Made by a program: the position numbers and the translations under genes. DNA of 64,000 nt from Candidatus Avimonas merdigallinarum (GTDB taxonomy: Bacteria; Bacillota; Clostridia; Oscillospirales; Acutalibacteraceae): the NCBI GenBank assembly GCA_904377855.1, contig CAJFGS010000001.1:42538-106537 (forward strand). The letters run 5' to 3'. Numbering within the stretch: position 1 is the first letter of the stretch; every line of letters begins with the position of its first letter. Under the pieces are notes generated by a model, which did not search any database, was not told the DNA's origin, and worked only from the letters and a program-made list of their open reading frames with translations. Of this stretch, positions 1,158-56,649 are shown piece after piece.

Positions 1158-1161
1158 CCGA

Positions 1162-7707: not shown

Positions 7708-7745
7708 ATTGTGCCATTCCTTTCTCGCTTTGCAAAGCCGGCGGA

Positions 7746-8780: not shown

Positions 8781-8827
8781 TCCCCTTCTTATTTCTCACG
8801 GCTGCCTTCCATGGTATCGGATTTCCC

Positions 8828-20973: not shown

Positions 20974-21363
20974 GGGCTTCACCGTCCTTTTCATCCAGTT
21001 TATCCAGGCATTGCAAGGAACTGTCTCCGGATTTTCAGCATTTCGGAACCAAAAGCGCAGGGCGCTGTTTCGCTGTCCGGGCCCCCGCACAACCTCTTCT
21101 TCAAGCGCACTGTTCCAAGCAATCCTATCCGGTTCTATTTTATTGGGATTTTCCCGCTTTGTCAAACTGTTCCATGGAATTGCCCCGGCCGGAATAGTCC
21201 CTCCGGTGAAGCCGGGGATTCTTCATAGGCAGGCAAAGCCCTGTAATACTAGCGGATGCAGTTGCCAGACTGCACTTTCATTATAGCAAAGGGAGTTTCT
21301 CTCGCTTCATCATCGGCTACAACCTTCTTCGGAACCACTCGCCCAGCGAGTGGTTTTCTTCAT

Positions 21364-42875: not shown

Positions 42876-45542
42876 TTATTTTCCGGTTTCCTTCCCGCGG
42901 TTTAAGCGCCGGAGGAGGGCCTGCACCCCTTTGACGATTTCCATCACCACCAGCGGGGCGATTGCCAGCCCGGCTACCACGCCCCAGGCCTCGCCGGAAA
43001 GGGCGGTGATGCCGAACAGGGACTGGAGCGGCCCCACCAGCAGGACCACCAGCATCAGGGCCAGGGAGACGGCAAACGCGCCGAGCATATACTTGTTCGT
43101 ATGGAATCCGGCGCGGAACAGGGAGTGGCTGCTGCGCACGTTAAACGCATGCACCAGCTGGGAAAGGGCCAGGGTGGCAAACGCCATCCCCTCCCCGAGG
43201 GGGATGTTCACCCCGCCGCCCGGCAGGGTGAATATCCGCGAACCGATAAAGTAGGCGGCCAGGGTGAGAAGGCCTATCATCATCCCCTGCCAAATGGCGG
43301 CCACGCCGAGCCCGCCGGCAAAGATCGATTCGGTCTTTTTCCGCGGCTTCCGGGTCATCACGTCGAATTCCACCGGCTCCATGCCGAGCGCCAGGGCGGG
43401 CAGCGAGTCGGTCACCAGGTTGATCCAGAGCAGCTGGATCGGCAGCAGCGGGGATTCCCGCCAGACCAGCATAGCGACAAAGACGGTGAGAATCTCCCCC
43501 AGGTTGCAGGAAAGCAGAAAATGCACCGCCTTGCGGATATTGTCGTAGATCCCGCGGCCTTCCTTGACCGCGGTAACGATGGTGGCGAAATTGTCGTCGG
43601 TCAGGGTCATATCGGCCGCGCCCTTGGCCACGTCGGTGCCGGTAATCCCCATGGCGCAGCCGATGTCCGCCGCTTTAAGGGCGGGGGCGTCGTTCACGCC
43701 GTCCCCGGTCATCGCCACGATTTCCCCGGCCCGCTGCCAGGCCTTCACGATCCGGATCTTATCTGCCGGCGTGACCCGGGCGTACACCCGGTAGCGGCGG
43801 ATATTTTCATACAGCTCGTCGTCGCTGAGCTTCGCAAGTTCGGTACCGGTAATCGCCTCGCTGTCGTCGTGCAGAATCCCGAGTTCCCGCGCGATCGCGG
43901 CGGCGGTGGTCACATGGTCGCCGGTGATCATCACCGTACGGATCCCCGCGGTGTCGCATTCCGCGATGGAGGCGGTCACCTCCGGGCGGGGCGGGTCGAT
44001 CATGCCGAGCAGACCGCCGAAGGTCAGCCCGTTTTCCATCTCTTCCGGCCTGCAGTCCAGCGGCGCGTCTTCCTCCAGGGTCTTGTATCCCAGGGCGAGG
44101 ACCCGCAGCGCATCCCGGGCCATCTCCTCGTTGGCGGCCGCTGCCGCCTTCAAGTCGCCCGCAACGCAGCGGCCCAGCAGGATATCCGGCGCCCCCTTGA
44201 CGATGACCACCCGCCGTCCATGGATGAGGTTGACGGTGGTCATCAGCTTCCGGTCGGAGTCGAAGGGGATTTCCCCCAGGCGAGGATGTTCGCTGACCAA
44301 ATCGTCCTTCGGCATCCCGCAGCGCAGGGCAGCGGCGACAATGGCGGTTTCGGTCGGATCGCCCAGATGCTTCTCCGCCCCGTCCACGATCTGCACCGTA
44401 CCGTCGGTGCACAGCGTCCCCATCCGGAGGAGTGCCAGCACGCTGTCCGGCGCCTTCTCCGACAAGGAAACGGTTTCTTTCCCGTCAAACACCTTCACCA
44501 GGGTCATCCGGTTCTGGGTAAGGGTGCCGGTCTTATCCGAGCAGATGACCGACGCGCTCCCCAGGGTTTCCACCGCGGGCAGGCGGCGGATGATGGCGTT
44601 TTTGGCCACCATGCGCTGCACCCCGATGGCGAGCACGATGGTGACAATGGCGGGCAGCCCCTCGGGAATGGCGGCCACGGCGAGGGAGACCGCCGTCATG
44701 AACATATCCAGCGGGGGCAGCCGGTCAATCAGCCCGACAATAAAGATGATAACGCAGATCCCAAGCGCCAGGAACCCGAGGCTTTTCCCCAGCCGCGCCA
44801 GCTTTTCCTGCAGCGGGGTGGCGGATTCCTTCTCGTTGTCCAGCATGGTGGCGATTTTTCCCATTTCGGTGCTCATGCCGGTCTCCACCACCACGCCGCG
44901 GGCGTGGCCGTAGGATACCGGGCAGCCGGAATAGGCCATATTCACCCGGTCGCCCAGCGGGGCGATATCCGGCACCGACGCCTGCGCGTCCTTGGACGCC
45001 GGCACCGATTCGCCGGTCAGGGCGGCCTCGTCGCACTGGAAGCGGGCGGTCTCCAGCAGGCGGCAGTCGGCGGGGACCAGATCCCCCGCCTCCATCTCCA
45101 CGATGTCGCCGGGCACCAGATCGGTGGCCTTCACGGTCTGGAGGGTCCCGTCCCGCAGGACGCGGGCCTCCGGCGCGGAAAGGTTTTTAAGCGCTTCCAG
45201 CGCCGCTTCCGCCTTGCTTTCCTGGATAACGCCGAGCAGGGCGTTTATCAGCACGATGGCGATGATGACGATAGGCTCTATCCAGTCGGCCTCCCCGCCG
45301 GTGACCGCATTGTAGATACTCAGGCCCAGGGAAACGGCGGCCGCAATAATCAGGATAATCACCATTACGTCCTTCAGCTGGTCGAGGAAACGCTGAAAAA
45401 AAGTACGGGGGGCTTTCTCCTGCAGTTTGTTCGGCCCATACGCCTGCAGGCGCTCCGCCGCCGCCTCCGTCGTCAGGCCGGCCTTAGGATCGGAACCGAG
45501 ATTCCCAAGCACCTTATCGACTTGTTCGCTGTACCAGATCAC
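42876..45542 (-). CDS. Cation-transporting P-type ATPase (P2-type, Ca2+-ATPase-like)
   Basis: 888 aa; phosphorylation motif SDKTGTLTQN, TGES, GDGVNDAPAL, 10 TM segments. Confidence 0.9.
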   Translation of the reverse strand: MIWYSEQVDKVLGNLGSDPKAGLTTEAAAERLQAYGPNKLQEKAPRTFFQRFLDQLKDVMVIILIIAAAVSLGLSIYNAVTGGEADWIEPIVIIAIVLINALLGVIQESKAEAALEALKNLSAPEARVLRDGTLQTVKATDLVPGDIVEMEAGDLVPADCRLLETARFQCDEAALTGESVPASKDAQASVPDIAPLGDRVNMAYSGCPVSYGHARGVVVETGMSTEMGKIATMLDNEKESATPLQEKLARLGKSLGFLALGICVIIFIVGLIDRLPPLDMFMTAVSLAVAAIPEGLPAIVTIVLAIGVQRMVAKNAIIRRLPAVETLGSASVICSDKTGTLTQNRMTLVKVFDGKETVSLSEKAPDSVLALLRMGTLCTDGTVQIVDGAEKHLGDPTETAIVAAALRCGMPKDDLVSEHPRLGEIPFDSDRKLMTTVNLIHGRRVVIVKGAPDILLGRCVAGDLKAAAAANEEMARDALRVLALGYKTLEEDAPLDCRPEEMENGLTFGGLLGMIDPPRPEVTASIAECDTAGIRTVMITGDHVTTAAAIARELGILHDDSEAITGTELAKLSDDELYENIRRYRVYARVTPADKIRIVKAWQRAGEIVAMTGDGVNDAPALKAADIGCAMGITGTDVAKGAADMTLTDDNFATIVTAVKEGRGIYDNIRKAVHFLLSCNLGEILTVFVAMLVWRESPLLPIQLLWINLVTDSLPALALGMEPVEFDVMTRKPRKKTESIFAGGLGVAAIWQGMMIGLLTLAAYFIGSRIFTLPGGGVNIPLGEGMAFATLALSQLVHAFNVRSSHSLFRAGFHTNKYMLGAFAVSLALMLVVLLVGPLQSLFGITALSGEAWGVVAGLAIAPLVVMEIVKGVQALLRRLNRGKETGK

Positions 45543-45808: not shown

Positions 45809-47113
45809 GTGGCGGAACATCGGTCGGCGGATTGCGGGATTATCGGGGGCGGCGCGGCCGGGTTGGCGGCCGCGGCCTTCCTTTCCTGCTTGTCGGGAGG
45901 CACGGTCTCGTCGGTGATACTGGAAAAGGGGGTGCGGGTCGGCCGGAAGCTGCTGGCCACCGGGAACGGCACCTGCAACCTGAGCAATATCCACGCGGCG
46001 CCCCCCTACTACCATGGGGCGGAGCCGGATTTTGCCCGGCCGGCGCTGTCCGCCTTCCCGCCAGAAGAAGCCACGGCCTTCTTCACCTCGATCGGGGTGG
46101 AATGCCATCAGCGGGAGGACGGGCGGATCTACCCGCTGTGCGCCCAGGCAGGCGCAGTGCTCGACTGCCTGCGGCTGACCCTCGCCGCGGCAGGGGTACG
46201 GGAGGAATGCGGCGCGCCGGTGACCGCGATCCACCCCGGACGGGACGGCTTCCGGATTGAACGGGAAGGGGCGGAGCCTTGGTATGTCCGGCGGGTGCTG
46301 GTCTGTACAGGGGGTGCCGCCTCCCCCTCCCTGGGCGGGGGGACGGACGGCTACGGGCTGCTGGGGGCGCTTGGGCATCCCCGCACCCCGCTCTTTCCCT
46401 CCATTGTCCAGGTGAAAACCGACGTCGCCTTTGTCAAGGCGGTCAAGGGGATCCGGGCCGACGCGGAACTCCGGTTTGAACGGGACGGGCGGCCTGTCGC
46501 GCGGGAAACGGGGGAAATCCTCTTCACCGAATACGGCCTGTCGGGGCCGGCAGTGATGCAGATCTCCCGCTGCGTGGCCGATTGGGAACGGCGGCGGGAG
46601 GGGGAGATGGCAGCGGTGCTCAACATCCTGCCCGACCTGGACAAGAAGGAACTGGCGGCTTCCCTGCGCCGGCGGGCGGCTCTCCCGGGCCGGACGGCGG
46701 GGGATCTGCTGACCGGCTTGGTCCATAAGCGGCTGGGGCAGACCGTGCTGCGCGCCGCCGGGTATACGGACTTGAACGCGCCGGTTTCCGCCCTGCGGGA
46801 GGCCGATCTCCGCCGGATCGCGGCGGGGCTGACAGCGTGGCGGATCCCGGTGCAGGGCACGCAGGGGATGGGCGGCGCCCAGGTGACTGCCGGCGGGGTG
46901 GAAACTGCCGGGTTCGATCCGGTGACGATGGAATCCCGCAAGGTTCCCGGCCTGTACGCGGCGGGCGAGGTGCTGGATATCGACGGGGACTGCGGCGGCT
47001 ATAATCTGCAGTGGGCGTGGGCGTCCGCCCATGCCGCTGCCTCTGCAATGGTCCGTTCCCTGTCTGCCGGCGGGGCGCCGGGAGGACGAAAAAAAGGAGG
47101 AAACGGGCGATGA
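45809..47113 (+). CDS. NAD(P)/FAD-dependent oxidoreductase, BaiN/HI0933 family
   Basis: GIIGGGAAGL dinucleotide fold and GRKLLATGNGTCNLSN family hallmark; GTG start after GGAGAGGGG. Confidence 0.8.
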   Translation: MAEHRSADCGIIGGGAAGLAAAAFLSCLSGGTVSSVILEKGVRVGRKLLATGNGTCNLSNIHAAPPYYHGAEPDFARPALSAFPPEEATAFFTSIGVECHQREDGRIYPLCAQAGAVLDCLRLTLAAAGVREECGAPVTAIHPGRDGFRIEREGAEPWYVRRVLVCTGGAASPSLGGGTDGYGLLGALGHPRTPLFPSIVQVKTDVAFVKAVKGIRADAELRFERDGRPVARETGEILFTEYGLSGPAVMQISRCVADWERRREGEMAAVLNILPDLDKKELAASLRRRAALPGRTAGDLLTGLVHKRLGQTVLRAAGYTDLNAPVSALREADLRRIAAGLTAWRIPVQGTQGMGGAQVTAGGVETAGFDPVTMESRKVPGLYAAGEVLDIDGDCGGYNLQWAWASAHAAASAMVRSLSAGGAPGGRKKGGNGR

Positions 47114-48732
47114 TCCGTATCAGCAATCTATCCCTTCCGCTTTCGTACACCGACGGGGATCTGCGGGCAGCGGTCTGCCGCCTGCTGTGGATCCGGGCGG
47201 AAGAGATCCGTTCCCTCCGCCGGGCGAAGGTATCGGTGGACGCGCGACACAAGGACCGGCTGTGCTTTGTCGCGGCGGTGGACGTTTCCCTCACGGGGGA
47301 CGAAGAGGCGGCGATCCGCCGCTGCAAAAGCGGGCAGGCAAAGCTTCTGGACGAATCCCCGTACGTCCCGCCCGTCCTCTCCCCCGCCCTCCAATGCGCC
47401 CGGCGGCCAGTGGTAGTGGGAAGCGGGCCGGCCGGCCTTTTCGCCGCGCTGGTGCTGGCCCGGGCGGGGCTGCGGCCGCTCCTGCTGGAACGGGGGCGGG
47501 CTGTGGAGGAGCGGCAGGCGGATGTGGGTCGCTTCCGCCAAACCGGCGTGCTGGACCCCTCTTCCAACGTACAGTTTGGGGAAGGGGGCGCGGGCACCTT
47601 TTCGGACGGGAAGCTGAACACCGGCATCAAAAACCCCCGCTGCCGCTTTGTGCTGGAGCAGCTGGCGGCAGCCGGCGCGCCGGAACGCATCCTGTGGCAG
47701 GCCAAACCCCACGTCGGCACTGATAAGCTGCGGGAAGCGGTGCGGGGGTTGCGGGCGGCCATCCTCGCTGCCGGCGGGGAGGTGCGTTTTTCCCACTGCG
47801 TGCGGGATTTCCTTGTGGAGCGGGGGGCGCTGCGCGGCCTGCTTGTCCACACGCCGGACGGTCCGGTGGAAATCGAAGCGGATCGGGCTGTCCTTGCCAT
47901 CGGGCACAGCGCGCGGGACACCATGGAGGCGCTCTACCGGCGGGGATTGGCGATGGAACCCAAGCCTTTCGCGGTCGGGGTACGCATCGAGCATCCCCGC
48001 GCGATGATTGATAAAAGCCAGTACGGGCCCTTCGCCGGCCATCCCGCGCTGGGGGCGGCCGATTATAAGCTGGCGGTGCGTCCGCGTGGCGGACGGGGGG
48101 TCTATACCTTCTGCATGTGCCCGGGCGGGGTGGTGATCGCCGCCGCCTCCGAAGAAGGGGGCGTGGTGGTCAACGGGATGAGCGAATTTGCGCGGGACGC
48201 GGAAAATTCCAACAGCGCCCTGCTGGTCGGCGTAGGGCCGGAGGACTTCTGCCGGGCCGGGGAGGCGGGGAACCCCCTGGCCGGCATCGCCTTCCAGCGT
48301 CGGCTGGAGCAGGCGGCCTACCGCCTGGGCGGGGGCGGATACCGCGCGCCCGCCCAGCTGGCGGGGGATTTCCTCGCGGGGAGGGCTTCGACCGGATTCG
48401 GAGATGTAAAGCCATCCTACTTGCCAGGAGTAGTCCCCGCCGATCTGCGGGAATGCCTGCCCGGTTTCGTCGCGGATTCCCTGCGGGCGGCCCTCCCAAT
48501 GATGGGAAGGCAGATCGCCGGATTCGACCGCCCGGATGCCGTGCTCACCGGGGTGGAGTCCCGCAGTTCCTCGCCGGTGCGGATCCTGCGGGACGAACGG
48601 GCGCAGGCTACTATCGCCGGGATTTTCCCCTGCGGGGAAGGCGCGGGCTATGCCGGCGGCATTGTGTCCGCAGCGGTAGACGGGGTAGTATGCGCGGAAA
48701 AGCTGATGGCATCGCTGGAATCAGGCGGATAA
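47110..48732 (+). CDS. FAD-dependent protein (COG2509-type dehydrogenase)
   Basis: Start MIRISNLSL after AAAGGAGG, ATGA overlap with upstream stop; VVVGSGPAGLFAAL Rossmann motif. Confidence 0.75.
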   Translation: MIRISNLSLPLSYTDGDLRAAVCRLLWIRAEEIRSLRRAKVSVDARHKDRLCFVAAVDVSLTGDEEAAIRRCKSGQAKLLDESPYVPPVLSPALQCARRPVVVGSGPAGLFAALVLARAGLRPLLLERGRAVEERQADVGRFRQTGVLDPSSNVQFGEGGAGTFSDGKLNTGIKNPRCRFVLEQLAAAGAPERILWQAKPHVGTDKLREAVRGLRAAILAAGGEVRFSHCVRDFLVERGALRGLLVHTPDGPVEIEADRAVLAIGHSARDTMEALYRRGLAMEPKPFAVGVRIEHPRAMIDKSQYGPFAGHPALGAADYKLAVRPRGGRGVYTFCMCPGGVVIAAASEEGGVVVNGMSEFARDAENSNSALLVGVGPEDFCRAGEAGNPLAGIAFQRRLEQAAYRLGGGGYRAPAQLAGDFLAGRASTGFGDVKPSYLPGVVPADLRECLPGFVADSLRAALPMMGRQIAGFDRPDAVLTGVESRSSSPVRILRDERAQATIAGIFPCGEGAGYAGGIVSAAVDGVVCAEKLMASLESGG

Positions 48733-48749
48733 TCACCAAAGGAGCAACC

Positions 48750-49943
48750 ATGAGGCGAAGAGGAAAACCAAAAGGCTACGGGCTGGTACTGGCCGGAGGA
48801 GGCTGTAAAGGGGTATACCAGATCGGTGCGTGGCGCGCGCTGCGGGAGATGGACATTCCGATTGAATGCGTGGTAGGCACCTCGGTCGGGGCGATGAACG
48901 GCGCGCTGGTCGCGCTGGGCTGCTACGACGGGGCGGTCGAACTTTGGAAGAACATGAGCATCGAAAAGGGTTTCCAGTTTCCGGAACCCCTCAAGGCGCC
49001 AGACGACCTGTTCAGCCTGAAAAACGCCGGCATCATTGTAAAGGAATTATGGAAAAACCACGGGCTAGATATCACGCCCCTCCGCCGGGCGCTGGAGGAA
49101 TTGATTGACGAAGAGGCGCTGCGCGCCTCCCCCGTGGAATACGGGCTGGTCACCTTCGAAGTAACCGGCAAGCGGGGGCGGGAACTGTATAAGGATCAGA
49201 TTCCGCCTGGGAGGATGATGGATTATATAATGGCCAGCGCCGCGTATCCGGGGCTCAAGCGCCCGGAGATCGACGGCAAAACTTTTCTGGACGGCGGGCT
49301 GCACGACAACGTCCCGGTGAAGATGCTTCTCCGCCGCCATTGCGACAACATCGTGGTGGTAAATATCGGGGACTCCGATCTTCCCGCCGATCTGGATCCC
49401 CGCCTGAACCTGCATCACATCAAGCCGAGGGATTCGTTAGGAAAAGCGTTTGCCTTTCGCCCGGAAACGGCGGAATCCAAGATGACTATGGGCCGGTACG
49501 ACGCCCTGCGCTCCTTCGGACGGCTGGCAGGGGAATGGATGTATTTCAACCCCATCGAATACCGTAGCCTCCAGGCGGAGCTGGGCGAGGAAATGGTCAG
49601 CGGCCTGGAGTGCGCCGCCCGGCTGTTCGGCATGGACAACCTGCGGCGATGCTCCACTGCCGCCTTTATCCGGGAGCTAAGGGAATGCGACCGGATTTCC
49701 CGGGAAAAATACCGGACGTTCCGCTCTCGCACGGTTCTCCCGTCTATGGCCAAGGGGCTGGCTAGCGGACAGTCTAAGGAATACGGCCTGACCAGCGATC
49801 TGCTTTTGCAGTTTGCCGAGGAGATGCTGGCAGACGGGGATCACCCACGGGCTCTGGAAATAGCCAGGAAGGCTGCGCCCGATCTGCTCCGCGCGGCCGA
49901 GGCGATGAATACGCTCCGCCGACGCATAGGCCCGGCAGAATAG
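48750..49943 (+). CDS. Patatin-like phospholipase
   Basis: GGGCKG oxyanion motif, GTSVG nucleophile elbow, DGG catalytic Asp; start MRRRGKPKGYG after AAAGGAG (the ORF-track extension is rejected). Confidence 0.85.
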   Translation: MRRRGKPKGYGLVLAGGGCKGVYQIGAWRALREMDIPIECVVGTSVGAMNGALVALGCYDGAVELWKNMSIEKGFQFPEPLKAPDDLFSLKNAGIIVKELWKNHGLDITPLRRALEELIDEEALRASPVEYGLVTFEVTGKRGRELYKDQIPPGRMMDYIMASAAYPGLKRPEIDGKTFLDGGLHDNVPVKMLLRRHCDNIVVVNIGDSDLPADLDPRLNLHHIKPRDSLGKAFAFRPETAESKMTMGRYDALRSFGRLAGEWMYFNPIEYRSLQAELGEEMVSGLECAARLFGMDNLRRCSTAAFIRELRECDRISREKYRTFRSRTVLPSMAKGLASGQSKEYGLTSDLLLQFAEEMLADGDHPRALEIARKAAPDLLRAAEAMNTLRRRIGPAE

Positions 49944-50110: not shown

Positions 50111-50455
50111 ATGACGATTGCCGATGTACGGGAAATTTTGCAGGCGGAAGTTATCACAGGGGAAGAGCATCTGGAAGCCGAAGTACACAACGCCTGCGGC
50201 AGCGACATGATGAGCGACGTGCTGGCCTTTGTAAAGGATCAGTCCGTGCTGCTGACCGGGCTGGTCAATCCCCAGGTCGTCCGGACAGCGGATATGATGG
50301 ACATGGTCTGCATCGTGTTTGTCCGCGGGAAGGAACCGGGAGAGGAAATTGTGGAACTGGCCGCCGATCGGGGGATTGTGCTCATGAAAACCCCTCTGCG
50401 GATGTTTACGGCCTGCGGCCTGCTGTATGAGAAGGGGCTGCGGGGCGGCAACTGA
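50111..50455 (+). CDS. DRTGG-domain protein (paralog 1)
   Basis: 114 aa; DRTGG-like core (GSDMMSDVLAF...SVLLTGLVNPQVVRTADMMDM...VFVRG...AADRGIVLMKT); GGGAGGT RBS. Confidence 0.7.
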   Translation: MTIADVREILQAEVITGEEHLEAEVHNACGSDMMSDVLAFVKDQSVLLTGLVNPQVVRTADMMDMVCIVFVRGKEPGEEIVELAADRGIVLMKTPLRMFTACGLLYEKGLRGGN

Positions 50456-50483: not shown

Positions 50484-50903
50484 ATGAATATGAAGTTGCA
50501 TTACGACGTGCCTGGCGACGATTTTACCCGCGCGGGGGAAGCCTCCAGCGCAGTCAAGCGCAAGCTCAAGCAGATGGGCTTTAACCCGGACGTGATCCGC
50601 CGGGTCGCTATCGCCATGTATGAAGGCGAAATCAACATGGTGATCCACGCCGGCGGCGGGGAGGCGGATGTGGAAATCCTCCCCGACCGGGTGACGGCGG
50701 TGCTGACCGACCACGGCCCGGGCATCCCCGACGTGGAGCAGGCGATGCAGGAAGGATGGTCCACCGCCCCGGATAATGTGCGTTCCCTCGGCTTCGGAGC
50801 CGGGATGGGGCTGCCGAACATAAAAAAATATTCCGATACGCTGGAAATACACACCAAGGTGGGCGAAGGAACCGTCCTGACAATTACGGTGCTGGTGAAA
50901 TAG
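50484..50903 (+). CDS. GHKL-type Ser/Thr kinase (RsbW/SpoIIAB-like anti-sigma-factor-type ATPase)
   Basis: N-box EGEINMVIHAGGG, G1 DHGPGIP, G2 GFGAGMGL; start MNMKLHYD. Confidence 0.75.
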   Translation: MNMKLHYDVPGDDFTRAGEASSAVKRKLKQMGFNPDVIRRVAIAMYEGEINMVIHAGGGEADVEILPDRVTAVLTDHGPGIPDVEQAMQEGWSTAPDNVRSLGFGAGMGLPNIKKYSDTLEIHTKVGEGTVLTITVLVK

Positions 50904-51041
50904 CGGCTGAAAATGCGAGCGCGCCAGGCCGATGGTTCCAGCCATACCTGATATCATCATATCATCGTTTGACGGGACATCAAAAGAAAAAACGGGCGGC
51001 GTTTGTCCGCCTCTTTTTTCAATCCGGGAGGCGAAACGGTT

Positions 51042-52385
51042 GTGGAAAACAAGGACCGCTTTTTCCATTCGGTCACGCTGGATAAGGATTTGTGCGTAGG
51101 CTGCACCAACTGCATCAAGCGCTGCCCGACGCAGGCGATCCGTGTGCGGGACGGGAAGGCGCAGATTATTTCCGAGCGGTGTATCGACTGCGGGGAATGC
51201 GTGCGGGTCTGCCCGCACCATGCCAAAAAAGCCCGGCATGACAGCCTGGCCATGCTGAAGGATTTTTCCTATCGGATCGCGCTGCCCGCCCCTGCCCTTT
51301 ATGGGCAGTTCAACCATCTGGACGATATTGACTTTGTTCTCAACGGGCTGCGCGCCATGGGTTTTGACGATGTGTTCGAGGTGTCGCGCGGGGCGGAAAT
51401 CATCTCCGACGCGACCCGGCAGCTCCTTATGGACGGGAAACTGAAAAAGCCGGTAATCTCCTCTGCCTGCCCGGCAGTGGTGCGGTTAATCCGGGTGCGC
51501 TTCCCCGACTTGTGCGAGCATGTCCTGCCGCTGAAAGCGCCAATGGAAGTGGCGGCGATGCTGGCGCGGAAGGCCGCGGTGGAAAAAACCGGGCTGAAGC
51601 CGGAGGAAATCGGCATTTTCTTCCTCTCCCCCTGCGCGGCGAAGGTGACCGACGTGAAGGTACCCATCGGGGTAGAGCGCTCCAATGTGGACGGGGTGCT
51701 GGCCATCAGCGACATCTATCCCCGCCTGGTCAGTAAGATGAACAAGCTGGAAACGCTCGAACCCCTCGCCCATTCCGGGATTATCGGGGTGGGATGGTCG
51801 TCGATCGGCGGGGAAGCGGCCGGCCTACTCAATGAAAACCATCTGGCCGCGGACGGCATCGACAACGTGATCAAGGTGCTGGAGGAACTGGAGGACGAAA
51901 AGCTGCAGGAGCTGGATTTCATCGAATTAAACGCCTGCGCGGGGGGGTGCGTGGGCGGCATTTTCACAGCAGAAAACGGGTATGTTGCCCGGGCACGCAT
52001 CCAGCGGCTGCGGAAATACCTGCCGGTCTCCTGTTCCCGGCTGGAGGATGCGGGGAGCATGGATAGCCTGGAATGGACCCAGCCGCTGGAGTTTGCGCCG
52101 GTGATGAAGCTGGCAGAAAACGTGGAAGACGCCATGCGGCTGATGACGGAAATCGATGAAATCAGCGAACGGCTCCCTCAGCTGGACTGCGGTTCCTGCG
52201 GCGCGCCGACCTGCCGTGCGCTGGCGGAGGACATTGTGCGGGGCCTGGCCAGGGAAAACGACTGCATCTTCCGCATGCGGCAGCAGATCCAGGATATCGC
52301 CAATCAACTCTCCAGCATCGAAAACGGGCCCCCAGGCGAAGGATCGGTCCGCCGGACGGGGCCCGAAAACACAACCGGCGGCTGA
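51042..52385 (+). CDS. [FeFe]-hydrogenase-like protein, putative sensory type (2x[4Fe-4S] ferredoxin N-terminus, H-cluster domain with SACP variant, C-terminal Cx2Cx4Cx16C)
   Basis: CVGCTNCIKRCP and CIDCGECVRVCP ferredoxin motifs. H-domain motifs are L1 SSACP (canonical TSCCP), L2 SPCAAKxxD and L3 ELNACAGGCVGG. C-terminal CGSCGAPTC-x16-C. No PAS domain. Start uncertain (GTG 51042 after GGGAGG; the ORF track begins at TTG 51003). Confidence 0.75.
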   Translation: MENKDRFFHSVTLDKDLCVGCTNCIKRCPTQAIRVRDGKAQIISERCIDCGECVRVCPHHAKKARHDSLAMLKDFSYRIALPAPALYGQFNHLDDIDFVLNGLRAMGFDDVFEVSRGAEIISDATRQLLMDGKLKKPVISSACPAVVRLIRVRFPDLCEHVLPLKAPMEVAAMLARKAAVEKTGLKPEEIGIFFLSPCAAKVTDVKVPIGVERSNVDGVLAISDIYPRLVSKMNKLETLEPLAHSGIIGVGWSSIGGEAAGLLNENHLAADGIDNVIKVLEELEDEKLQELDFIELNACAGGCVGGIFTAENGYVARARIQRLRKYLPVSCSRLEDAGSMDSLEWTQPLEFAPVMKLAENVEDAMRLMTEIDEISERLPQLDCGSCGAPTCRALAEDIVRGLARENDCIFRMRQQIQDIANQLSSIENGPPGEGSVRRTGPENTTGG

Positions 52386-52456: not shown

Positions 52457-52798
52457 ATGACGGTGGAAGAGATGGCGCAGGCCATGCAGCTGGAAACCCT
52501 GGTGGAAGGAGACGGCGCCCGTGCGGTAACCGGCGGGTACTGCGGGGATCTGCTCAGCTGGGTGATGGGCCGGGCAAAAGAAGGGGACGCGTGGATCACC
52601 GTGATGGGCAATGTAAACGCTGTCGCGGTGGCTGTCCTTGCGGACACAGCCTGCATCCTGCTGGCAGAGGATTCCCCGCTGGACAACGACGCGCGGGAAC
52701 GGGCGGCCGTGCAGAAAGTAACCATTCTGCGCAGCGGGAAGGATGCCTATACCCTCGCGCTGGAACTGGGAAAGCTGCTTGAAAAACCACAGGGGTAA
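52457..52798 (+). CDS. DRTGG-domain protein (paralog 2)
   Basis: 113 aa; same domain architecture as the 50111 gene; GGGGGAAAG RBS. Confidence 0.7.
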   Translation: MTVEEMAQAMQLETLVEGDGARAVTGGYCGDLLSWVMGRAKEGDAWITVMGNVNAVAVAVLADTACILLAEDSPLDNDARERAAVQKVTILRSGKDAYTLALELGKLLEKPQG

Positions 52799-52838: not shown

Positions 52839-53174
52839 ATGAACGACAGGAACGAAAAGGAAACGAAGCAACAGGGCGGGATCGTCTGGACCGAAGATCT
52901 CATTCGGGAGATGGCCCGCCATGGCTCCCTTCCCTCCCGGGAATGCACCAAGGAGGAGGAAGAGCAGTTCGTCGCGCTTTTGGACGAAGGAAAGCCGCTG
53001 CCGGAGACGGTCTATCGGAACCGGTCCGGCACACGTTTCTATAAAGTGGAAATCCCCGATCCCGAAACGCTCAAGCTCCGGCTGGAATCCCGCCGGACCC
53101 ACTACTTTCAGCTGGGCGTCTGGGCGTTGTGGGCCATCGCCATCCTGCTGGTGGCCCTGATTGTGAGAATGTAA
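52839..53174 (+). CDS. Small tail-anchored membrane protein (hypothetical)
   Basis: 111 aa; CCAGGAGG RBS 10 nt upstream; single C-terminal TM helix (LGVWALWAIAILLVALIV). Confidence 0.45.
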   Translation: MNDRNEKETKQQGGIVWTEDLIREMARHGSLPSRECTKEEEEQFVALLDEGKPLPETVYRNRSGTRFYKVEIPDPETLKLRLESRRTHYFQLGVWALWAIAILLVALIVRM

Positions 53175-53211
53175 GGCTGGCGGGATGCCGCCGGCATGGG
53201 AAAGGAGCGCG

Positions 53212-53955
53212 ATGCGGATGAAAATCCGGTATGACCTGCATATCCATTCCTGCCTGTCTCCCTGCGGCGATGCGGATATGACGCCGAACAATATCGTCAA
53301 TATGGCGCTGTTGGCCGGGCTGGAACTCATCGCGCTGACCGACCATAATTCCTGCAAAAACTGCCCCGCCTTCCTCCGCGCTGCGGAACGGGCGGGGCTT
53401 GTTGCCGTACCGGGAATGGAACTTTGCACGGCGGAGGAGTGCCATATTATCTGCCTATTCCCTGCGCTGGACGCGGCCATGGCGTTCGACCGCTTTATAG
53501 AGGCCGCGCTGCCGCCGGTGGAAAACCGGCCGGATATTTTCGGCGAACAGTGGATCCTGGACGAGGAGGACGCACTGACCGGCTCCTTCCCTCTTCTGCT
53601 GGCCACCGCTTCCTCCCTCAGCGTAGACGAAGTGGTCGGGACGGTGCGAGGATACGGCGGCGCCGCTTTCCCGGCCCACATCGATCGTCCTTCTTACAGC
53701 GTGACCGCGGCGCTCGGCGACATTCCCCCGGTGGGCTTCCGGGCAATTGAGGTGACGGCTGCCGGAGATGTGGCGGCGCTCGCCGCGCGGTATCCGGAGA
53801 TGCGCGGAAAGCCGGTTATATGGAATTCGGACGCCCATTATCTCGAACAGATCCAGGAAGCCGGGCCGTGGCTGGACCTGCCGGAAAACACCCCTGCCGC
53901 CCTAATTGCGGCGCTGAACGGGGACCTCCCCGCCGCCTGGGGCCGTGGGGAATAA
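53212..53955 (+). CDS. PHP-domain phosphoesterase
   Basis: HIHS...TDHNS metal-binding motifs of the PHP (polymerase/histidinol phosphatase) fold; ~248 aa. Confidence 0.8.
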   Translation: MRMKIRYDLHIHSCLSPCGDADMTPNNIVNMALLAGLELIALTDHNSCKNCPAFLRAAERAGLVAVPGMELCTAEECHIICLFPALDAAMAFDRFIEAALPPVENRPDIFGEQWILDEEDALTGSFPLLLATASSLSVDEVVGTVRGYGGAAFPAHIDRPSYSVTAALGDIPPVGFRAIEVTAAGDVAALAARYPEMRGKPVIWNSDAHYLEQIQEAGPWLDLPENTPAALIAALNGDLPAAWGRGE

Positions 53956-54285: not shown

Positions 54286-55662
54286 CTACCGACCCACCGG
54301 CGGCCTTGAGTATCCCCGCCCTTCATTGTCCCCTTTCCAGCTTTCCAGCGCGCCGGCCAGCGCCGCCCGTTCATTGGGGAACCGCCCGTCGATCACCCCG
54401 TCCAGCAGGTACCGCAGCGCTTCCCCGACTGCCGGTCCCGACGGGATGCCGGCGGCCAGCACGTCCCGCCCGTTTACCGCCAGGTCACGAAGCCGGAAAC
54501 AGTCCTGCTGCGCCAAAACCGTTTGCAGCGTTCCTTCCAGCCCTGCCAAAAGCTCCAGGCGGGGCGGCTGGTAGAGGGGCGCCTGCGCAAGGGTATCCGC
54601 CCGCTTAATCTGAAGGAGCCGGCGGAAATCCTCCTCCCCTAACCGGTTGAGCCAACGGCGGACACAGCCCGGCTGATTGTCTATGGAAACGTCGTGATAT
54701 TTCACCAGGCGGACAATCCGTTTCCGAGTGTCCGTATCGAATTTCAGGCGGCGCAGCGCCTCGTCCGCCAGCCGCTCGCTCACCGCCGGGTGGCCATAAA
54801 AATGCCCTATTCCCGCCCCATCTTGCGTATAGGTGGACGGTTTGCCGCTGTCGTGGAACAGTACAGCGGCCCGCACCAAAAAATCCGACCCGGCAGACTC
54901 CAGCGCACGGAGGGTGTGTTCCCACACATCCCAGCAGTGATGGGGGTTACGCTGTTCAAATCCCCACATCGACCGGATTTCAGGCAGGAATACCCCAAAA
55001 ACCGGCGCAAATTCCCGCAGTATCCGCGGCGCATCCCGGCCGGTCAACAGCCGGCGGAATTCCACATTCACCCGCTCCGCCGCAATGAGATGCAGCCGCT
55101 CCCGCTCCTCCCGCATGGCGCGGGCGGTCGCTTCTTCAATGATAAAGCCATATGCGGCGGCAAAGCGCAGGCCTCGGAGGATCCGGAGCCCGTCCTCCTG
55201 AAAGCGGCGGCGCGCCTCCCCGACGCAGCGGATCCGCCCCGCGTCCAGGTCCGCACGCCCGCCGAACAGATCCACCAGCCCCCGGACGGGATGGTAAGCC
55301 ATGGCGTTGATGGTAAAATCCCGGCGGGCCAGGTCATCCTCCAGCCGCCGCACAAATTTTACCTGGTCGGGACGGCGGCCGTCGGTATACCCGGCCTCCA
55401 CCCGGTAAGTGGTCACCTCGCAGGCTTCCCCGTCCAGCAGCACCGTCACCGTCCCGTGCCGGGCCCCCGTTTCCAGCACCCGGCAATCTGCAAAGCAGCG
55501 GGCGGTTTCCTCCGGCAGGGCGGAGGTGGCGATATCCCAATCATGCGGCGTTCTTCCCAGCAGCGCGTCCCGGACGCAGCCGCCCACCGCATACGCTTCA
55601 TACCCCTGCTCTTCCAGGCGGGCTATCACCCGTCCCGCCTGAGCGCTGAATGGAAAATCCAT
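54286..55662 (-). CDS. cca: CCA tRNA nucleotidyltransferase (class II, with HD domain)
   Basis: GGCVRD...DWD polymerase-beta head, HD motif HDSGK in the C-terminal part. Confidence 0.85.
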   Translation of the reverse strand: MDFPFSAQAGRVIARLEEQGYEAYAVGGCVRDALLGRTPHDWDIATSALPEETARCFADCRVLETGARHGTVTVLLDGEACEVTTYRVEAGYTDGRRPDQVKFVRRLEDDLARRDFTINAMAYHPVRGLVDLFGGRADLDAGRIRCVGEARRRFQEDGLRILRGLRFAAAYGFIIEEATARAMREERERLHLIAAERVNVEFRRLLTGRDAPRILREFAPVFGVFLPEIRSMWGFEQRNPHHCWDVWEHTLRALESAGSDFLVRAAVLFHDSGKPSTYTQDGAGIGHFYGHPAVSERLADEALRRLKFDTDTRKRIVRLVKYHDVSIDNQPGCVRRWLNRLGEEDFRRLLQIKRADTLAQAPLYQPPRLELLAGLEGTLQTVLAQQDCFRLRDLAVNGRDVLAAGIPSGPAVGEALRYLLDGVIDGRFPNERAALAGALESWKGDNEGRGYSRPPVGR

Positions 55663-55692: not shown

Positions 55693-56649
55693 CTAATCAA
55701 ACAGCCGCAGCTGCGCCTCCCGGCAGGAAGCCGCGCGGCGGGGAACCACCCGATCCTCCGGCCCCGGCCAGCCGGTCAGCAGCGGGGAACGGGGATCGTG
55801 CCGCGCCCGGTTCCGCGCGGCGGCGGCCGGGGAGGCGGTGGCGTAGCAGTACAGACAGTCGTGGGTGCAGGTTTCGTACCCGCCGATATCCACGCTTTCC
55901 GCACAGCCGCAGCCCGGCCGCTGTCCCGGGTCCTTTTTGCCCTTCAGGGAAAAGCCGCCGAGCCGCCCGAGCCGCTGCGGATCGATGCAGGCGCCGGGAA
56001 GGATCCCCGTCCCCGCCCGATCCATTTCCTCACAGCAGGAGCGGAGCACCAGCCCGGCCTGCCCGGCGGCCTGGGAAAAGGCGGCGGCCAGTTCCCGCTG
56101 CTCCGCCGGGGTCACCGGCTGATCCGCCTGTCCGGCCGACCGTGCTTTCGCCTTGGGATAAAGGTCGAGGAAGCTGAAGACGCATTCGTCCGCCGCACCG
56201 GCCAATTCCTCCGCCATCTGAACAAAGCGTTCCCGGTGGAACCCCACCGTATACGCCTCATTGACAATCACCGGATCGTACCGCCATACCAGCCGCCCCG
56301 GGCCCCATTGCTCCGACAGCTGGCGGAATAAGCGGAGGAGGTCGGTTTTGGGCGGCAACCCCGGCTCCAAATCGGGGCCGTAGGGAGTGAGGGTGAACTG
56401 CAGATAATATGGCACGCCCCATTCCTCCAGCAAATCGAGCGCCGCCCGCCCCGGCCCGTCCAGCAGCGGGGCGGGGTTCTTGCTCCAGAACACCACCCCG
56501 TCCAGCGTCCCCGGTTCCAGCGGGACGCGGGAGAGGGCATGGGGCCGGTAGGGGCCGCGCACCAGCGCGTAGCCCTCCCGCAGCCGGTTCCAAAACCATT
56601 CCATATAAAACGCCGGCAGGTCGGTCCGCCGGGACGCACTGAGAATCAT
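55693..56649 (-). CDS. DUF1848-domain protein
   Basis: MILSASRRTDLPAFYMEWFWNRL is the characteristic DUF1848 N-terminus; Cys-rich C-terminus. Confidence 0.65.
   Translation of the reverse strand: MILSASRRTDLPAFYMEWFWNRLREGYALVRGPYRPHALSRVPLEPGTLDGVVFWSKNPAPLLDGPGRAALDLLEEWGVPYYLQFTLTPYGPDLEPGLPPKTDLLRLFRQLSEQWGPGRLVWRYDPVIVNEAYTVGFHRERFVQMAEELAGAADECVFSFLDLYPKAKARSAGQADQPVTPAEQRELAAAFSQAAGQAGLVLRSCCEEMDRAGTGILPGACIDPQRLGRLGGFSLKGKKDPGQRPGCGCAESVDIGGYETCTHDCLYCYATASPAAAARNRARHDPRSPLLTGWPGPEDRVVPRRAASCREAQLRLFD

What the first reader, a model, noticed from the sequence alone, without database searches (positions are those of the whole stretch)
51003..52385. Hydrogenase-like protein carries sensory-group hallmarks: L1 TSCCP to SSACP, intact L2/L3, and an exact Cx2Cx4Cx16C C-terminal cluster motif without a PAS domain
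The sequence has two ferredoxin-type CxxCxxCxxxCP motifs, then an H-cluster domain. The L1 motif reads ISSACPAVV: one Cys is retained, and the Cys that is proton-transfer in catalytic enzymes is Ala. L2 is LSPCAAKVTD and L3 is ELNACAGGCVGG.

The C-terminus contains CGSCGAPTC followed by exactly 16 residues and another Cys (Cx2Cx4Cx16C). I recall this spacing as the accessory [4Fe-4S] motif of putative sensory HydS-type hydrogenases.

Loss of the proton-relay Cys plus the extra cluster motif argues for a sensor rather than an H2-evolving enzyme. Absence of the usual PAS module suggests signal output through the co-encoded kinase instead.
Basis: partly seen in the sequence, partly recalled or inferred. 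Interest (0 to 1): 0.65.

Follow-up and report, generated by a model that had tools for sequence, protein, structure and literature searches.

The report
Putative hydrogen-sensing [FeFe] hydrogenase, Group D

Summary
The ORF at 51003-52385 (+), whose real start is probably GTG 51042, encodes a [FeFe]-hydrogenase homologue. It has two ferredoxin-type [4Fe-4S] motifs and an H-domain with all four H-cluster cysteines. L1 reads SSACP, with Ala in place of the proton-relay Cys. An exact C-terminal Cx2Cx4Cx16C motif is present and there is no PAS domain.

This is the published definition of the M2e subclass, or Group D, of "putative sensory" [FeFe] hydrogenases. The characterised example is Thermoanaerobacter mathranii TamHydS. 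The window protein also carries the Group D-specific residues: Ser at CpI M353, the E252/E289/D265 proton path, and the charged residues around the clusters.

The gene sits in a cassette DRTGG – GHKL ATPase – HydS – DRTGG – PHP phosphoesterase. This cassette is conserved in order in about 90% of 80 related genomes, persists at 32-47% identity, and appears partly as gene fusions.

The "kinase" is SpoIIAB/RsbW-like, not a two-component histidine kinase. Unlike TamHydS, the cassette here is not next to a bifurcating hydrogenase. Whether maturases exist in this genome, and whether the protein really senses H2, cannot be tested here.

Verdict: new member of a known kind, with modest interest.

The parts
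50111..50455 (+). DRTGG-domain protein 1 (114 aa), first gene of the cassette
   Evidence: Pfam DRTGG scores E=7e-7, above its cut-off. It is conserved in 75 of 80 related loci in the same position and orientation at 60-92% identity. The motifs ACGSDMMSDVLAF and LLTGL.NPQV.RTA are at least 95% conserved. It is found fused to the N-terminus of HydS in P0165 and P0204.
50484..50903 (+). Small GHKL ATPase, SpoIIAB/RsbW-like (HATPase_c_2, 139 aa). The maximal ORF starts at 50427 and the probable start is ATG 50484.
   Evidence: Pfam HATPase_c_2 scores 1.6e-11. NCBIfam spIIAB scores 7.5e-13, which at 48.6 bits is below the 135-bit cut-off, and RsbW gives about 1e-4. PDB anti-sigma F factor 1til scores 3e-5. 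The N-box (EGEINMVIHA), G1 (DHGPGI) and G2 (GFGAGMGL) motifs are conserved. No HisKA/DHp domain is present. It occurs in 79 of 80 loci and is fused to HydS in P0162.
50994..51019 (+). GC-rich hairpin plus T-run between the ATPase gene and hydS; terminator- or attenuator-like
   Evidence: The terminator scan reports GGGCGGCGTTTGTCCGCC followed by T6. The equivalent hairpin and T-run are present in the closest relatives L001-L005. Its function was not tested.
51042..52385 (+). Group D (M2e) [FeFe]-hydrogenase homologue, 'HydS' (447 aa from GTG 51042; the maximal ORF runs from TTG 51003)
   Evidence: Closest homologues are 92-93% identical, in Candidatus Avimonas MAGs.
51093..51215 (+). N-terminal F-domain: two CxxCxxCxxxCP [4Fe-4S] motifs (51093-51128 and 51180-51215)
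   Evidence: Found by regex and by the Fer4 Pfam families. The Cys residues are conserved in 106-123 of 123 family representatives.
51459..51473 (+). L1 motif SSACP. Ala155 (TTG numbering) corresponds to CpI C299 and TamHydS A137. Cys156 is the [4Fe-4S]H ligand.
   Evidence: Alignment to DdH, CbA5H and HDCR HydA2. A TamHydS primer encodes PVISSACPA, which is identical to the window sequence. No representative has Cys at this position (0 of 123).
51627..51644 (+). L2 motif SPCAAK. Ser209 corresponds to CpI M353 and TamHydS S191. Cys211 is a ligand. Lys214 corresponds to CpI K358.
   Evidence: Ser or Thr occupies this position in 106 of 123 representatives. 'M353 to Ser/Thr is a well-conserved property of M2e' (PMC8163306).
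51924..51959 (+). L3 motif ELNACAGGCVGG. Glu308 corresponds to TamHydS E289. Asn310 corresponds to CpI M497. Cys312 and Cys316 correspond to CpI C499 and C503.
   Evidence: The TamHydS primers encode DFFEGLAC.
52188..52265 (+). C-terminal accessory [4Fe-4S] motif Cx2Cx4Cx16C (C396, C399, C404, C421), with flanking D395, E409, D410 and D420
   Evidence: Found by regex. Pfam PF04060 scores 5e-13. It aligns with the [4Fe-4S] domain of the corrinoid/Fe-S protein 4djd_C (8e-5) and of RnfB. The flanking residues match TamHydS D378, C379, E392, D393, D403 and C404.
52457..52798 (+). DRTGG-domain protein 2 (113 aa), a paralogue of protein 1
   Evidence: Pfam DRTGG scores 6.6e-6. It is 22% identical to DRTGG1, E=9e-5. 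It occurs in 76 of 80 loci. It is fused to the C-terminus of HydS in P0129, P0136, P0245, P0224 and P0261.
52839..53174 (+). Orphan 111-aa ORF with a C-terminal hydrophobic helix, inserted between DRTGG2 and PHP. Probably not part of the conserved system.
   Evidence: No Pfam or NCBIfam hit. No nucleotide similarity in any of the 80 related loci; at protein level a single weak tblastn match, 27% identity in L009. Its codon-position GC pattern looks coding.
53185..53955 (+). PHP-family metal-dependent phosphoesterase (256 aa; the probable start is 27-33 nt downstream)
   Evidence: Pfam PHP scores 1.2e-9 and PHP_C 6e-5. PDB phosphoesterases 3e0f and 2yb1 score about 1e-4. The motif YDLHIHS...TDHN...SDAH is conserved. 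It occurs in 72 of 80 loci.

Best explanation
The gene encodes a Group D (M2e) [FeFe] hydrogenase, the class exemplified by TamHydS.

Inferred make-up of the protein: two relay [4Fe-4S] clusters in the N-terminal ferredoxin domain, a complete H-cluster in the H-domain, and a fourth [4Fe-4S] cluster on the C-terminal Cx2Cx4Cx16C module.

The fast Group A proton path is absent. C299, E279, E282, R286 and S319 (CpI numbering) are replaced by Ala, Ala, Gln, Asp and Leu. The Group D path is present instead: E271, E308 and D284 in TTG-start numbering, corresponding to TamHydS E252, E289 and D265. By analogy with TamHydS, the enzyme should bind and split H2 with high affinity but turn over slowly. 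That behaviour suits a reporter of H2 partial pressure rather than a bulk H2 producer.

The gene is co-encoded, and in other lineages fused, with a SpoIIAB-like GHKL ATPase and two DRTGG proteins. A PHP phosphoesterase is co-encoded but no fusion with it was seen.

The most likely working model is that the H2-dependent state of HydS alters its contacts with the ATPase and DRTGG partners. [quoted passage not shown] Shown here: identity, motifs, family membership, and cassette conservation and fusions.

Inferred: H-cluster insertion, H2 sensing, phosphorylation chemistry, and the regulated target, which is not adjacent in this genome.
For: - Domain content: Fer4 x2, Fe_hyd_lg_C (1e-31), PF04060 (5e-13) and no PAS.
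- Ligand and second-sphere positions were mapped on solved hydrogenases.
- The same positions were mapped on TamHydS through residue numbers and mutagenesis-primer peptides in PMC11803613 and PMC10407848. A137, S191, E252, D265, E289, R30, R32, K35, R42, K58, D378, E392, D393, D403 and C379/C404 all have identical counterparts.
- The same pattern holds in 123 diverse family representatives: 0 Cys at the C299 site, 106 Ser/Thr at the M353 site, 94 at E252, 111 at E289 and 116-119 for each C-terminal Cys.
- The C-terminal motif aligns with structurally proven [4Fe-4S] domains of CoFeSP and RnfB.
- The cassette DRTGG-HATPase-HydS-DRTGG-PHP is conserved in order and strand in 72-79 of 80 genomes. 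It is retained at 32-47% identity.
- Rosetta-stone fusions exist between HydS and DRTGG (N- or C-terminal) and between HydS and HATPase_c_2.
- All partner proteins are under strong conservation.
- The literature assigns this class a putative sensory role (PMC3561251, PMC8163306, PMC13104023).
Against: - No direct evidence of sensing exists for any Group D enzyme. TamHydS is catalytically competent, with a slight bias to H+ reduction (PMC8163306).
- The TamHydS C-terminal cluster is not reduced by H2 (PMC13104023).
- In this window no hydrogenase operon, maturase, sigma factor, STAS protein or DNA-binding regulator lies next to the cassette. The output is therefore unknown.
- TamHydS S249 is Ile here and the one retained Group A residue, E122/E282, is Gln here.
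- The AF2 model is weak outside the H-domain core, with a mean pLDDT of 63.
Confidence: 0.75

Rival explanations
1. It is simply a slow but metabolically used catalytic hydrogenase. It would exchange electrons with ferredoxin through the N-terminal clusters, and the neighbouring genes would regulate or assist it rather than receive a signal from it.
For: TamHydS interconverts H+ and H2 close to the thermodynamic potential (PMC8163306). All H-cluster ligands, Lys214 (CpI K358) and a complete alternative proton path are conserved. No other hydrogenase gene is present in the 64-kb window.
Against: TamHydS specific activity is orders of magnitude below Group A enzymes (PMC10407848, PMC11803613). 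The tight and ancient linkage, including fusions, to a GHKL ATPase and DRTGG proteins is typical of signalling modules, not of catabolic enzymes. In many relatives the cassette sits beside a full bifurcating HydABC set that would do the bulk chemistry.
Confidence: 0.17
2. It carries no di-iron subcluster in vivo, in a NARF/Nar1-like situation. It would act as an Fe-S-based redox, O2 or CO sensor, or as an electron-transfer protein.
For: No hydE, hydF or hydG is visible in the window. The window is only 64 kb, so this is weak evidence. Pfam Fe_hyd_lg_C also covers Nar1-type proteins.
Against: The pocket residues that hold the [2Fe] site are retained: the bridging Cys316, Lys214 and the PAPA segment. 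The homologue TamHydS binds [2Fe]adt and reacts with H2 (PMC8163306). The protein is bacterial, has a bacterial-type F-domain, and in relatives is linked to HydABC operons.
Confidence: 0.05
3. It is the input of a classical two-component system: H2, then histidine kinase autophosphorylation, then a response regulator.
For: The neighbour has a histidine-kinase-like ATPase fold. The literature loosely calls it a 'histidine kinase-like ATPase' (PMC8163306).
Against: The ATPase is 139 aa with no HisKA/DHp or HPt domain. Its best matches are the anti-sigma Ser-kinases SpoIIAB and RsbW. No response regulator is present in the cassette or in any of the conserved neighbourhoods.
Confidence: 0.03

Closest known systems
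TamHydS, Thermoanaerobacter mathranii Group D (M2e) putative sensory [FeFe] hydrogenase (WP_013150113; PMC8163306, PMC10407848, PMC11803613, PMC13104023)
   Same: Same domain order: 2x[4Fe-4S], H-domain, then Cx2Cx4Cx16C, with no PAS. L1 is identical (PVISSACPA). Ala occupies the C299 site and Ser the M353 site. The E252, E289 and D265 path is conserved. The charged residues around the N- and C-terminal clusters are conserved. A small HATPase gene is adjacent.
   Different: The M497 site is Asn here and Leu in TamHydS. TamHydS S249 is Ile here and E122 is Gln here. The cassette is not upstream of a bifurcating HydABC operon and no AraC regulator is adjacent. The organism is a mesophilic gut Clostridia (Candidatus Avimonas-like, about 60% GC), not a thermophile.
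TmHydS / RaHydS / HfsB, Group C (M2f) putative sensory [FeFe] hydrogenases
   Same: They share the N-terminal two-cluster domain, an H-domain lacking the relay Cys, and the C-terminal Cx2Cx4Cx16C cluster. They are likewise linked to regulatory genes and bifurcating hydrogenases.
   Different: Group C enzymes carry a C-terminal PAS domain and associate with Ser/Thr kinase and PP2C-type partners. No PAS domain is present here. The partners here are DRTGG, a SpoIIAB-like ATPase and PHP. The active-site substitutions also differ: Group C has M353 as Gly and M497 as Ser.
Prototypical Group A [FeFe] hydrogenases (CpI, DdHydAB, CrHydA1)
   Same: They share the H-domain fold (Foldseek top hits), the four H-cluster Cys ligands, Lys358 and a DdH-like F-domain.
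   Different: The TSCCP relay Cys is absent, as is the whole Group A proton pathway. Both framing methionines are replaced. There is an extra C-terminal cluster. NCBIfam Group A and B1 models score far below their cut-offs.
SpoIIAB/RsbW partner-switching modules (anti-sigma Ser kinase, STAS antagonist and PP2C phosphatase)
   Same: There is a small stand-alone GHKL ATPase with intact ATP-binding boxes, and its closest relatives are SpoIIAB and RsbW. It is co-encoded with small partner proteins and a phosphoesterase.
   Different: No STAS-domain protein, no PP2C and no sigma factor are present. DRTGG proteins and a PHP enzyme stand in their places. Scores are far below the SpoIIAB and RsbW family cut-offs.

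Membership tests
Group D / M2e [FeFe] hydrogenase | H-domain with the four H-cluster cysteine ligands (CpI C300, C355, C499, C503) | tested here: met
   C156, C211, C312 and C316 are present. Pfam Fe_hyd_lg_C scores 1e-31. They align to solved enzymes.
Group D / M2e [FeFe] hydrogenase | [quoted passage not shown] | tested here: met
   Two CxxCxxCxxxCP motifs are present.
Group D / M2e [FeFe] hydrogenase | C-terminal Cx2Cx4Cx16C motif | tested here: met
   The spacing is exact at 52188-52265. PF04060 scores 5e-13. The motif is homologous to the CoFeSP and RnfB [4Fe-4S] domains.
Group D / M2e [FeFe] hydrogenase | No PAS domain (this distinguishes it from Group C / M2f) | tested here: met
   No PAS family is found in the Pfam scan at E<=0.01. 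The protein ends about 40 residues after the cluster motif.
Group D / M2e [FeFe] hydrogenase | Relay Cys (CpI C299) not conserved; Ala in TamHydS | tested here: met
   Ala155 occupies this site. The L1 peptide is identical to the TamHydS primer-encoded PVISSACPA.
Group D / M2e [FeFe] hydrogenase | CpI M353 replaced by a hydroxyl residue (Ser or Thr) | tested here: met
   Ser209 occupies this site, as does Ser or Thr in 106 of 123 relatives.
Group D / M2e [FeFe] hydrogenase | Group D-specific proton path E252-E289-(S249)-D265 | tested here: met
   E271, E308 and D284 are present. The moderately conserved S249 is Ile268 here.
Group D / M2e [FeFe] hydrogenase | Conserved charged residues near the clusters (R30, R32, K35, K58, D378, E392, D393, D403) | tested here: met
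   R47, R49, K52, K75, D395, E409, D410 and D420 are present.
Group D / M2e [FeFe] hydrogenase | Phylogenetic placement with labelled Group D references | not tested
   Full TamHydS and TmHydS sequences could not be obtained. Only primer-derived peptides and residue numbers were used.
Group D / M2e [FeFe] hydrogenase | Usual context: next to a kinase-like ATPase and upstream of a bifurcating HydABC | tested here: inconclusive
   The ATPase neighbour is present. HydABC is absent from the whole window. It is present next to the cassette in at least 13 of 35 related loci with enough flank and in L081.
Group D / M2e [FeFe] hydrogenase | Binds the [2Fe] subcluster; HydEFG present in the genome | not testable with these tools
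   Only 64 kb of the genome is visible and no maturase lies in it.
Group C / M2f sensory [FeFe] hydrogenase | C-terminal PAS domain after the Cx2Cx4Cx16C cluster | tested here: not met
   No PAS hit was found. None was found in 10 longer relatives either.
Group A prototypical [FeFe] hydrogenase | TSCCP with the relay Cys, plus the E279/E282/R286/S319 pathway and M353/M497 | tested here: not met
   The corresponding residues are SSACP, A137, Q140, D144, L175, S209 and N310. TIGR02512 scores 103 bits against a cut-off of 406.
Two-component histidine kinase (for the neighbouring ATPase) | HisKA/DHp domain with a phospho-accepting His, and a cognate response regulator | tested here: not met
   Only HATPase_c_2 and HATPase_c are hit in a 139-aa protein. 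No response regulator is found in the conserved neighbourhoods.
SpoIIAB/RsbW anti-sigma Ser kinase (for the neighbouring ATPase) | Family-level score, a STAS antagonist and a target sigma factor | tested here: not met
   It is the best NCBIfam hit but scores 48.6 bits against a cut-off of 135. No STAS or sigma gene is in the cassette or the window. The resemblance is in fold and ATP-binding boxes only.

The most novel reading that the evidence does not exclude
The five-gene cassette is a self-contained, H2-responsive protein-switch module of a kind not yet described mechanistically. In this reading HydS docks a SpoIIAB-like GHKL ATPase and two DRTGG proteins. The fusions HATPase-HydS, DRTGG-HydS and HydS-DRTGG in other lineages argue for direct contact. 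H2 binding would change this complex. The ATPase would phosphorylate or sequester a DRTGG partner and the PHP phosphoesterase would reverse it. The output would act in trans on targets encoded elsewhere. Candidate targets are NuoE/NuoF-type bifurcating hydrogenases or formate dehydrogenases, which in many genomes carry a second HATPase gene inside their operon. The stand-alone copy in this Avimonas-like genome would be the minimal form of that module.
Probability: 0.35. Interest if true: 0.6.

Novelty: new member of a known kind. Interest (0 to 1): 0.3.

Why it matters
How Group D hydrogenases would transmit an H2 signal without a PAS domain is stated as an open question in the literature (PMC8163306, PMC13104023). 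This window does not answer it. It does show that the hydrogenase is locked into a strongly conserved partner set: a SpoIIAB-like ATPase, two DRTGG proteins and a PHP phosphoesterase. That set survives deep divergence, is sometimes fused to the hydrogenase, and can exist apart from any hydrogenase operon.

This gives concrete proteins to test for interaction and phosphorylation. It also suggests that H2 sensing of this type is widespread in gut Oscillospiraceae-like Clostridia. H2 partial pressure controls fermentation balance in that habitat.

As an individual gene, it is an ordinary member of a known class.

Tried and rejected
1. A regex scan for TSCCP and for a NuoF motif in the 80 related loci gave zero hits. 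I first read this as 'never next to a hydrogenase'. That was wrong. ORF clustering showed NuoE, NuoF and HydA genes beside the cassette in at least 13 of 35 loci. Their HydA has TSCSP in L1, which the regex missed.

2. I tried to obtain the full TamHydS sequence from paper supplements and by grepping primer-derived peptides in the 150 representatives. Only relatives were found, not TamHydS itself, so no labelled tree was built.

3. The AlphaFold2 model from a shallow alignment of 26 sequences at 70% identity or more was poor outside the H-domain core, with a mean pLDDT of 63. It was used only to confirm that the fold matches [FeFe] hydrogenases. No cluster geometry was inferred from it.

4. 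An Rfam scan of the window at gathering thresholds found nothing. The hairpin upstream of hydS is therefore not a known riboswitch or RNA family.

5. The Nar1/NARF reading and the two-component histidine-kinase reading were considered and rejected. See the rival explanations.

6. I looked for maturases, sigma factors, STAS proteins and regulators across the window by motif scans and five Pfam batches. No maturase, sigma factor, STAS protein or response regulator was found, and the only DNA-binding regulator hit is a LysR-family gene about 29 kb upstream (20074-21165, -).
Full report
**Observation.**
- Two CxxCxxCxxxCP motifs lie at 51093-51128 and 51180-51215.
- SSACP lies at 51459-51473.
- SPCAAK lies at 51627-51644.
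- ELNACAGGCVGG lies at 51924-51959.
- CGSCGAPTC-x16-C lies at 52188-52265.

Pfam assigns Fer4 families at about 1e-11, Fe_hyd_lg_C at 1.1e-31 and PF04060 'Putative Fe-S cluster' at 5.1e-13. No PAS family is hit.

Sequence and profile searches against all PDB chains return only [FeFe] hydrogenases at the top. In those alignments the Ala of SSACP falls on the relay cysteine. In D. desulfuricans the wild-type motif is TSCCP, and the C178A mutant reads TSACP. The next Cys falls on the cluster ligand. SPCAAK aligns with MPCIAK, and ELNACAGGCVGG aligns with EYMACPGGCVCG. The motif assignments are therefore not misaligned.

The isolated C-terminal segment aligns with the N-terminal [4Fe-4S] domain of the corrinoid/iron-sulfur protein large subunit (4djd_C, 8e-5) and of RnfB. 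In those structures the same Cys spacing binds a cubane cluster.

**Start codon.** The TTG at 51003 lies inside a GC-rich hairpin followed by a T-run (50994-51019). Homologues align only from residue 14-18. GTG at 51042 is preceded by GGGAGG at 51026-51031. I take 51042 as the start, giving 447 aa. Residue numbers below use the TTG frame unless stated otherwise.

**What it is.** The literature held in the library describes exactly this architecture as the M2e subclass, or Group D, of [FeFe] hydrogenases.
- Both M2e and M2f have two N-terminal [4Fe-4S] motifs and a C-terminal Cx2Cx4Cx16C motif.
- The relay Cys C299 is not conserved, and the Group A proton pathway is missing.
- M2e lacks the PAS domain of M2f.
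- M353 is a hydroxyl residue.
- Carere et al. classified 'D M2e' genes as monomeric sensory hydrogenases in 2012, on the basis of proximity to kinases and bifurcating hydrogenases (PMC3561251).

I could not retrieve the full TamHydS sequence. The papers do give residue numbers and mutagenesis primers that encode local peptides.
- PVISSACPA around A137 is identical to the window protein.
- EIVSKFTREA around F119/E122 corresponds to EIISDATRQL here.
- SGGEAFGTF around E252 corresponds to IGGEAAGLL here.
- DFFEGLAC around E289/L291 corresponds to DFIELNAC here.

Anchoring on these peptides gives the following residue map.

| TamHydS residue | Window residue | Note |
|---|---|---|
| A137 | A155 | CpI C299 site |
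| S191 | S209 | CpI M353 site |
| L157 | L175 | CpI S319 site |
| E252 | E271 | Group D proton path |
| D265 | D284 | Group D proton path |
| E289 | E308 | Group D proton path |
| L291 | N310 | CpI M497 site, stated to be variable in the class |
| R30, R32, K35, R42, K58 | R47, R49, K52, R59, K75 | near the N-terminal clusters |
| D378 / C379 | D395 / C396 | C-terminal cluster |
| E392 / D393 | E409 / D410 | C-terminal cluster |
| D403 / C404 | D420 / C421 | C-terminal cluster |
| S249 | I268 | differs |
| E122 | Q140 | differs |
| S384 | A401 | differs |

**Family breadth.**
- The word-indexed search found 8000 or more relatives. The best are 92% identical and are annotated, where annotated at all, as '[Fe-Fe] hydrogenase large subunit C-terminal domain-containing protein', 'ferredoxin' or 'RnfB'.
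- The genome scan places the closest relatives (93%) in Candidatus Avimonas MAGs from chicken gut, and then in many uncultured Oscillospiraceae and Ruminococcaceae.
- Against 1.84 billion 50%-cluster representatives there are 607 hits at E<=1e-30.

In an alignment of 123 full-length representatives at 30-61% identity:
- none has Cys at the C299 position (43 Ala, 26 Ser, 15 Phe, 12 Thr and others);
- the four H-cluster ligands are present in 120-122;
- Ser or Thr is at the M353 site in 106;
- E252 is kept in 94, E289 in 111 and D265 in 86;
- each C-terminal Cys is kept in 116-119.

The window protein is thus a typical member, not a variant.

NCBIfam has no Group D model. The B1 and A models match far below their cut-offs.

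A ColabFold model from a shallow alignment is confident only for the H-domain core, with a mean pLDDT of 63. Its Foldseek hits in the PDB are all [FeFe] hydrogenases: CbA5H, DdH, CpI and TmHydABC. No Group C or D structure appeared among the sequence or fold hits.

**Surroundings.** The hydrogenase is the third gene of a tight same-strand cassette.
1. DRTGG protein, 50111-50455.
2. A 139-aa GHKL ATPase, 50484-50903.
3. HydS.
4. A second DRTGG protein, 52457-52798, 22% identical to the first.
5. An orphan 111-aa ORF, 52839-53174.
6. A PHP-family phosphoesterase, 53185-53955.

tblastn of these proteins against 80 related genome loci shows DRTGG1 in 75, the ATPase in 79, DRTGG2 in 76 and PHP in 72. 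They are always in the same order and strand. The shortfall is mostly from loci cut at contig ends. The 111-aa ORF has only one weak match, 27% identity in L009, and its DNA has no similarity in any locus.

All four partners show blocks of residues that are at least 95% conserved.

The cassette persists around much more distant homologues.
- At 47% identity (L081) it is followed by NuoE, a second HATPase, NuoF and a 582-aa HydA. This is the classical 'sensor upstream of bifurcating HydABC' layout.
- At 35% and 32% identity it neighbours NuoE/NuoF-type or NfnB-like genes together with a molybdopterin formate-dehydrogenase-like subunit (L084, L085).
- At 37% identity it is stand-alone with a permuted gene order (L087).

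Among representatives longer than 500 aa:
- five are HydS-DRTGG fusions;
- two are DRTGG-HydS fusions;
- one is a HATPase_c_2-HydS fusion;
- none has PAS.

These fusions mirror the gene order and argue for physical association.

**The 'kinase'.** The ATPase has intact N, G1 and G2 boxes but no HisKA/DHp domain. Its best family matches are the anti-sigma factor Ser-kinases SpoIIAB (7.5e-13, below cut-off) and RsbW. Its only PDB matches are SpoIIAB structures at about 3e-5. It should not be called a two-component histidine kinase.

No STAS protein, PP2C, sigma factor or response regulator is encoded in the cassette or anywhere in the window. The only DNA-binding regulator hit in the window is a LysR-family gene about 29 kb upstream (20074-21165, -). 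The rest of the window holds housekeeping and transport genes.

**Position relative to hydrogenase genes.** The window contains no other H-cluster protein, no NuoE/NuoF homologue and no radical-SAM maturase candidate. The only exceptions are a DUF1848 protein and an ORF fragment with a CxxxCxxC motif at the 5' edge of the window (bases 3-26, -), which was not followed up.

In the Avimonas-like clade the flanks are patatin and FAD-protein genes upstream and unrelated genes downstream. Here, therefore, the cassette is uncoupled from any hydrogenase operon, unlike TamHydS.

My first regex test suggested this was true of all 80 loci. That was an artefact. At least 13 of 35 loci with enough flank carry NuoE/NuoF genes beside the cassette, and six carry a HydA whose L1 reads TSCSP.

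**Mechanism.**

Shown: identity, cofactor-binding motifs, membership features, and conservation and fusions of the partner set.

From the literature on TamHydS:
- slow but real H+/H2 interconversion;
- high H2 affinity and a stabilised Hred state;
- an H2-induced secondary-structure change;
- a C-terminal cluster that is not reduced by H2 (PMC8163306, PMC13104023).

Inferred for this locus:
- HydS reports H2 through a conformational change to the docked ATPase and DRTGG proteins;
- the ATPase binds or phosphorylates a partner;
- PHP reverses the modification;
- the target is encoded elsewhere.

The main rival is that the protein is simply a low-rate catalytic hydrogenase. An Fe-S-only (NARF-like) role and a classical two-component role are unlikely, for the reasons given in the rival entries.

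**Verdict.**
- The gene is a new member of a known kind (Group D / M2e).
- What goes modestly beyond the literature I could search is the extent and depth of the DRTGG-ATPase-HydS-DRTGG-PHP module, its gene fusions, the SpoIIAB-like nature of the ATPase, and the stand-alone placement here.
- Searches for DRTGG, PHP, anti-sigma or partner-switching terms together with hydrogenase terms found no paper describing this module.
- Calusinska et al. 2010, which defined M2e, is not in the library and may cover part of it.

Noticed in passing
window 50994-51019 (+): A GC-rich hairpin (GGGCGGCGTTTGTCCGCC) followed by a run of six T lies between the ATPase gene and hydS, about 23 nt before the likely GTG start. 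The same hairpin and T-run are present in the closest relatives L001-L005. It could be an internal terminator or attenuator that sets the ratio of DRTGG1 and ATPase transcripts to HydS, DRTGG2 and PHP transcripts. It matches no Rfam family.
   Followed up: partly
window 52839-53174 (+): An orphan 111-aa ORF with a coding-like codon-position GC pattern and a C-terminal hydrophobic helix is inserted between DRTGG2 and PHP. It has no Pfam or NCBIfam hit. It has no DNA similarity in any of the 80 related loci and only one weak protein match (27% identity, L009). The intergenic region there is 77-314 nt in the closest relatives.
   Followed up: partly
L024 16753-18501, L053 16004-17746, L069 3768-5519, and also L042, L044, L066: The 580-aa HydA-type hydrogenases encoded next to NuoE/NuoF beside the cassette in these relatives have L1 = ITSCSPGW. 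That is TSCSP instead of TSCCP, so the residue before Pro, normally the [4Fe-4S]H ligand Cys, reads Ser. L2 (MPCxAKK) and L3 (ExMxCPGGCVNG) are canonical. I did not work out whether this is a register shift or a known subgroup trait.
   Followed up: no
P0129, P0136, P0245, P0224, P0261, P0165, P0204, P0162 (representatives): Natural gene fusions join the Group D hydrogenase to a DRTGG domain, at either the N- or the C-terminus, or to the HATPase_c_2 domain at the N-terminus. P0172 and P0268 have C-terminal extensions of more than 100 aa with no Pfam hit.
   Followed up: partly
L084 (GCA_049718665.1) 122-9552; L085 655-7629: In distant relatives the HydS cassette sits beside NuoE/NuoF-type or NfnB-like genes plus a molybdopterin (formate-dehydrogenase-like) catalytic subunit rather than a HydA. 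In L084 the ATPase carries an N-terminal CBS domain. This suggests the module may also be associated with formate dehydrogenase complexes.
   Followed up: no
P0249 (4122 aa): A 4122-residue protein matches the H-domain segment 99-208 in 14 separate stretches. It is a giant repetitive protein with hydrogenase-like repeats, or an assembly or gene-call artefact.
   Followed up: no
window 1-64000: The rest of the window is ordinary chromosome. Genes include Dtd (1162-1611, -), RelA/SpoT (1720-4251, -), RecJ (4026-6095, -), CdaA (7746-8708, -), a cysteine desulfurase-like aminotransferase (8828-10033, -), QueA (11718-12785, +), several ABC transporters, a P-type cation ATPase (42876-45542, -), HI0933-like and FAD-dependent proteins (45809-48732, +) and patatin (48744-49943, +). 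Further genes are the CCA-adding enzyme (54286-55662, -), DUF1848 (55693-56649, -), ApbE (57771-58826, -), TelA (60367-61506, +) and an L-lactate/malate dehydrogenase (61940-62902, +). A lower-GC stretch (about 49-52%) lies around 10-12 kb and 32-34 kb.
   Followed up: partly
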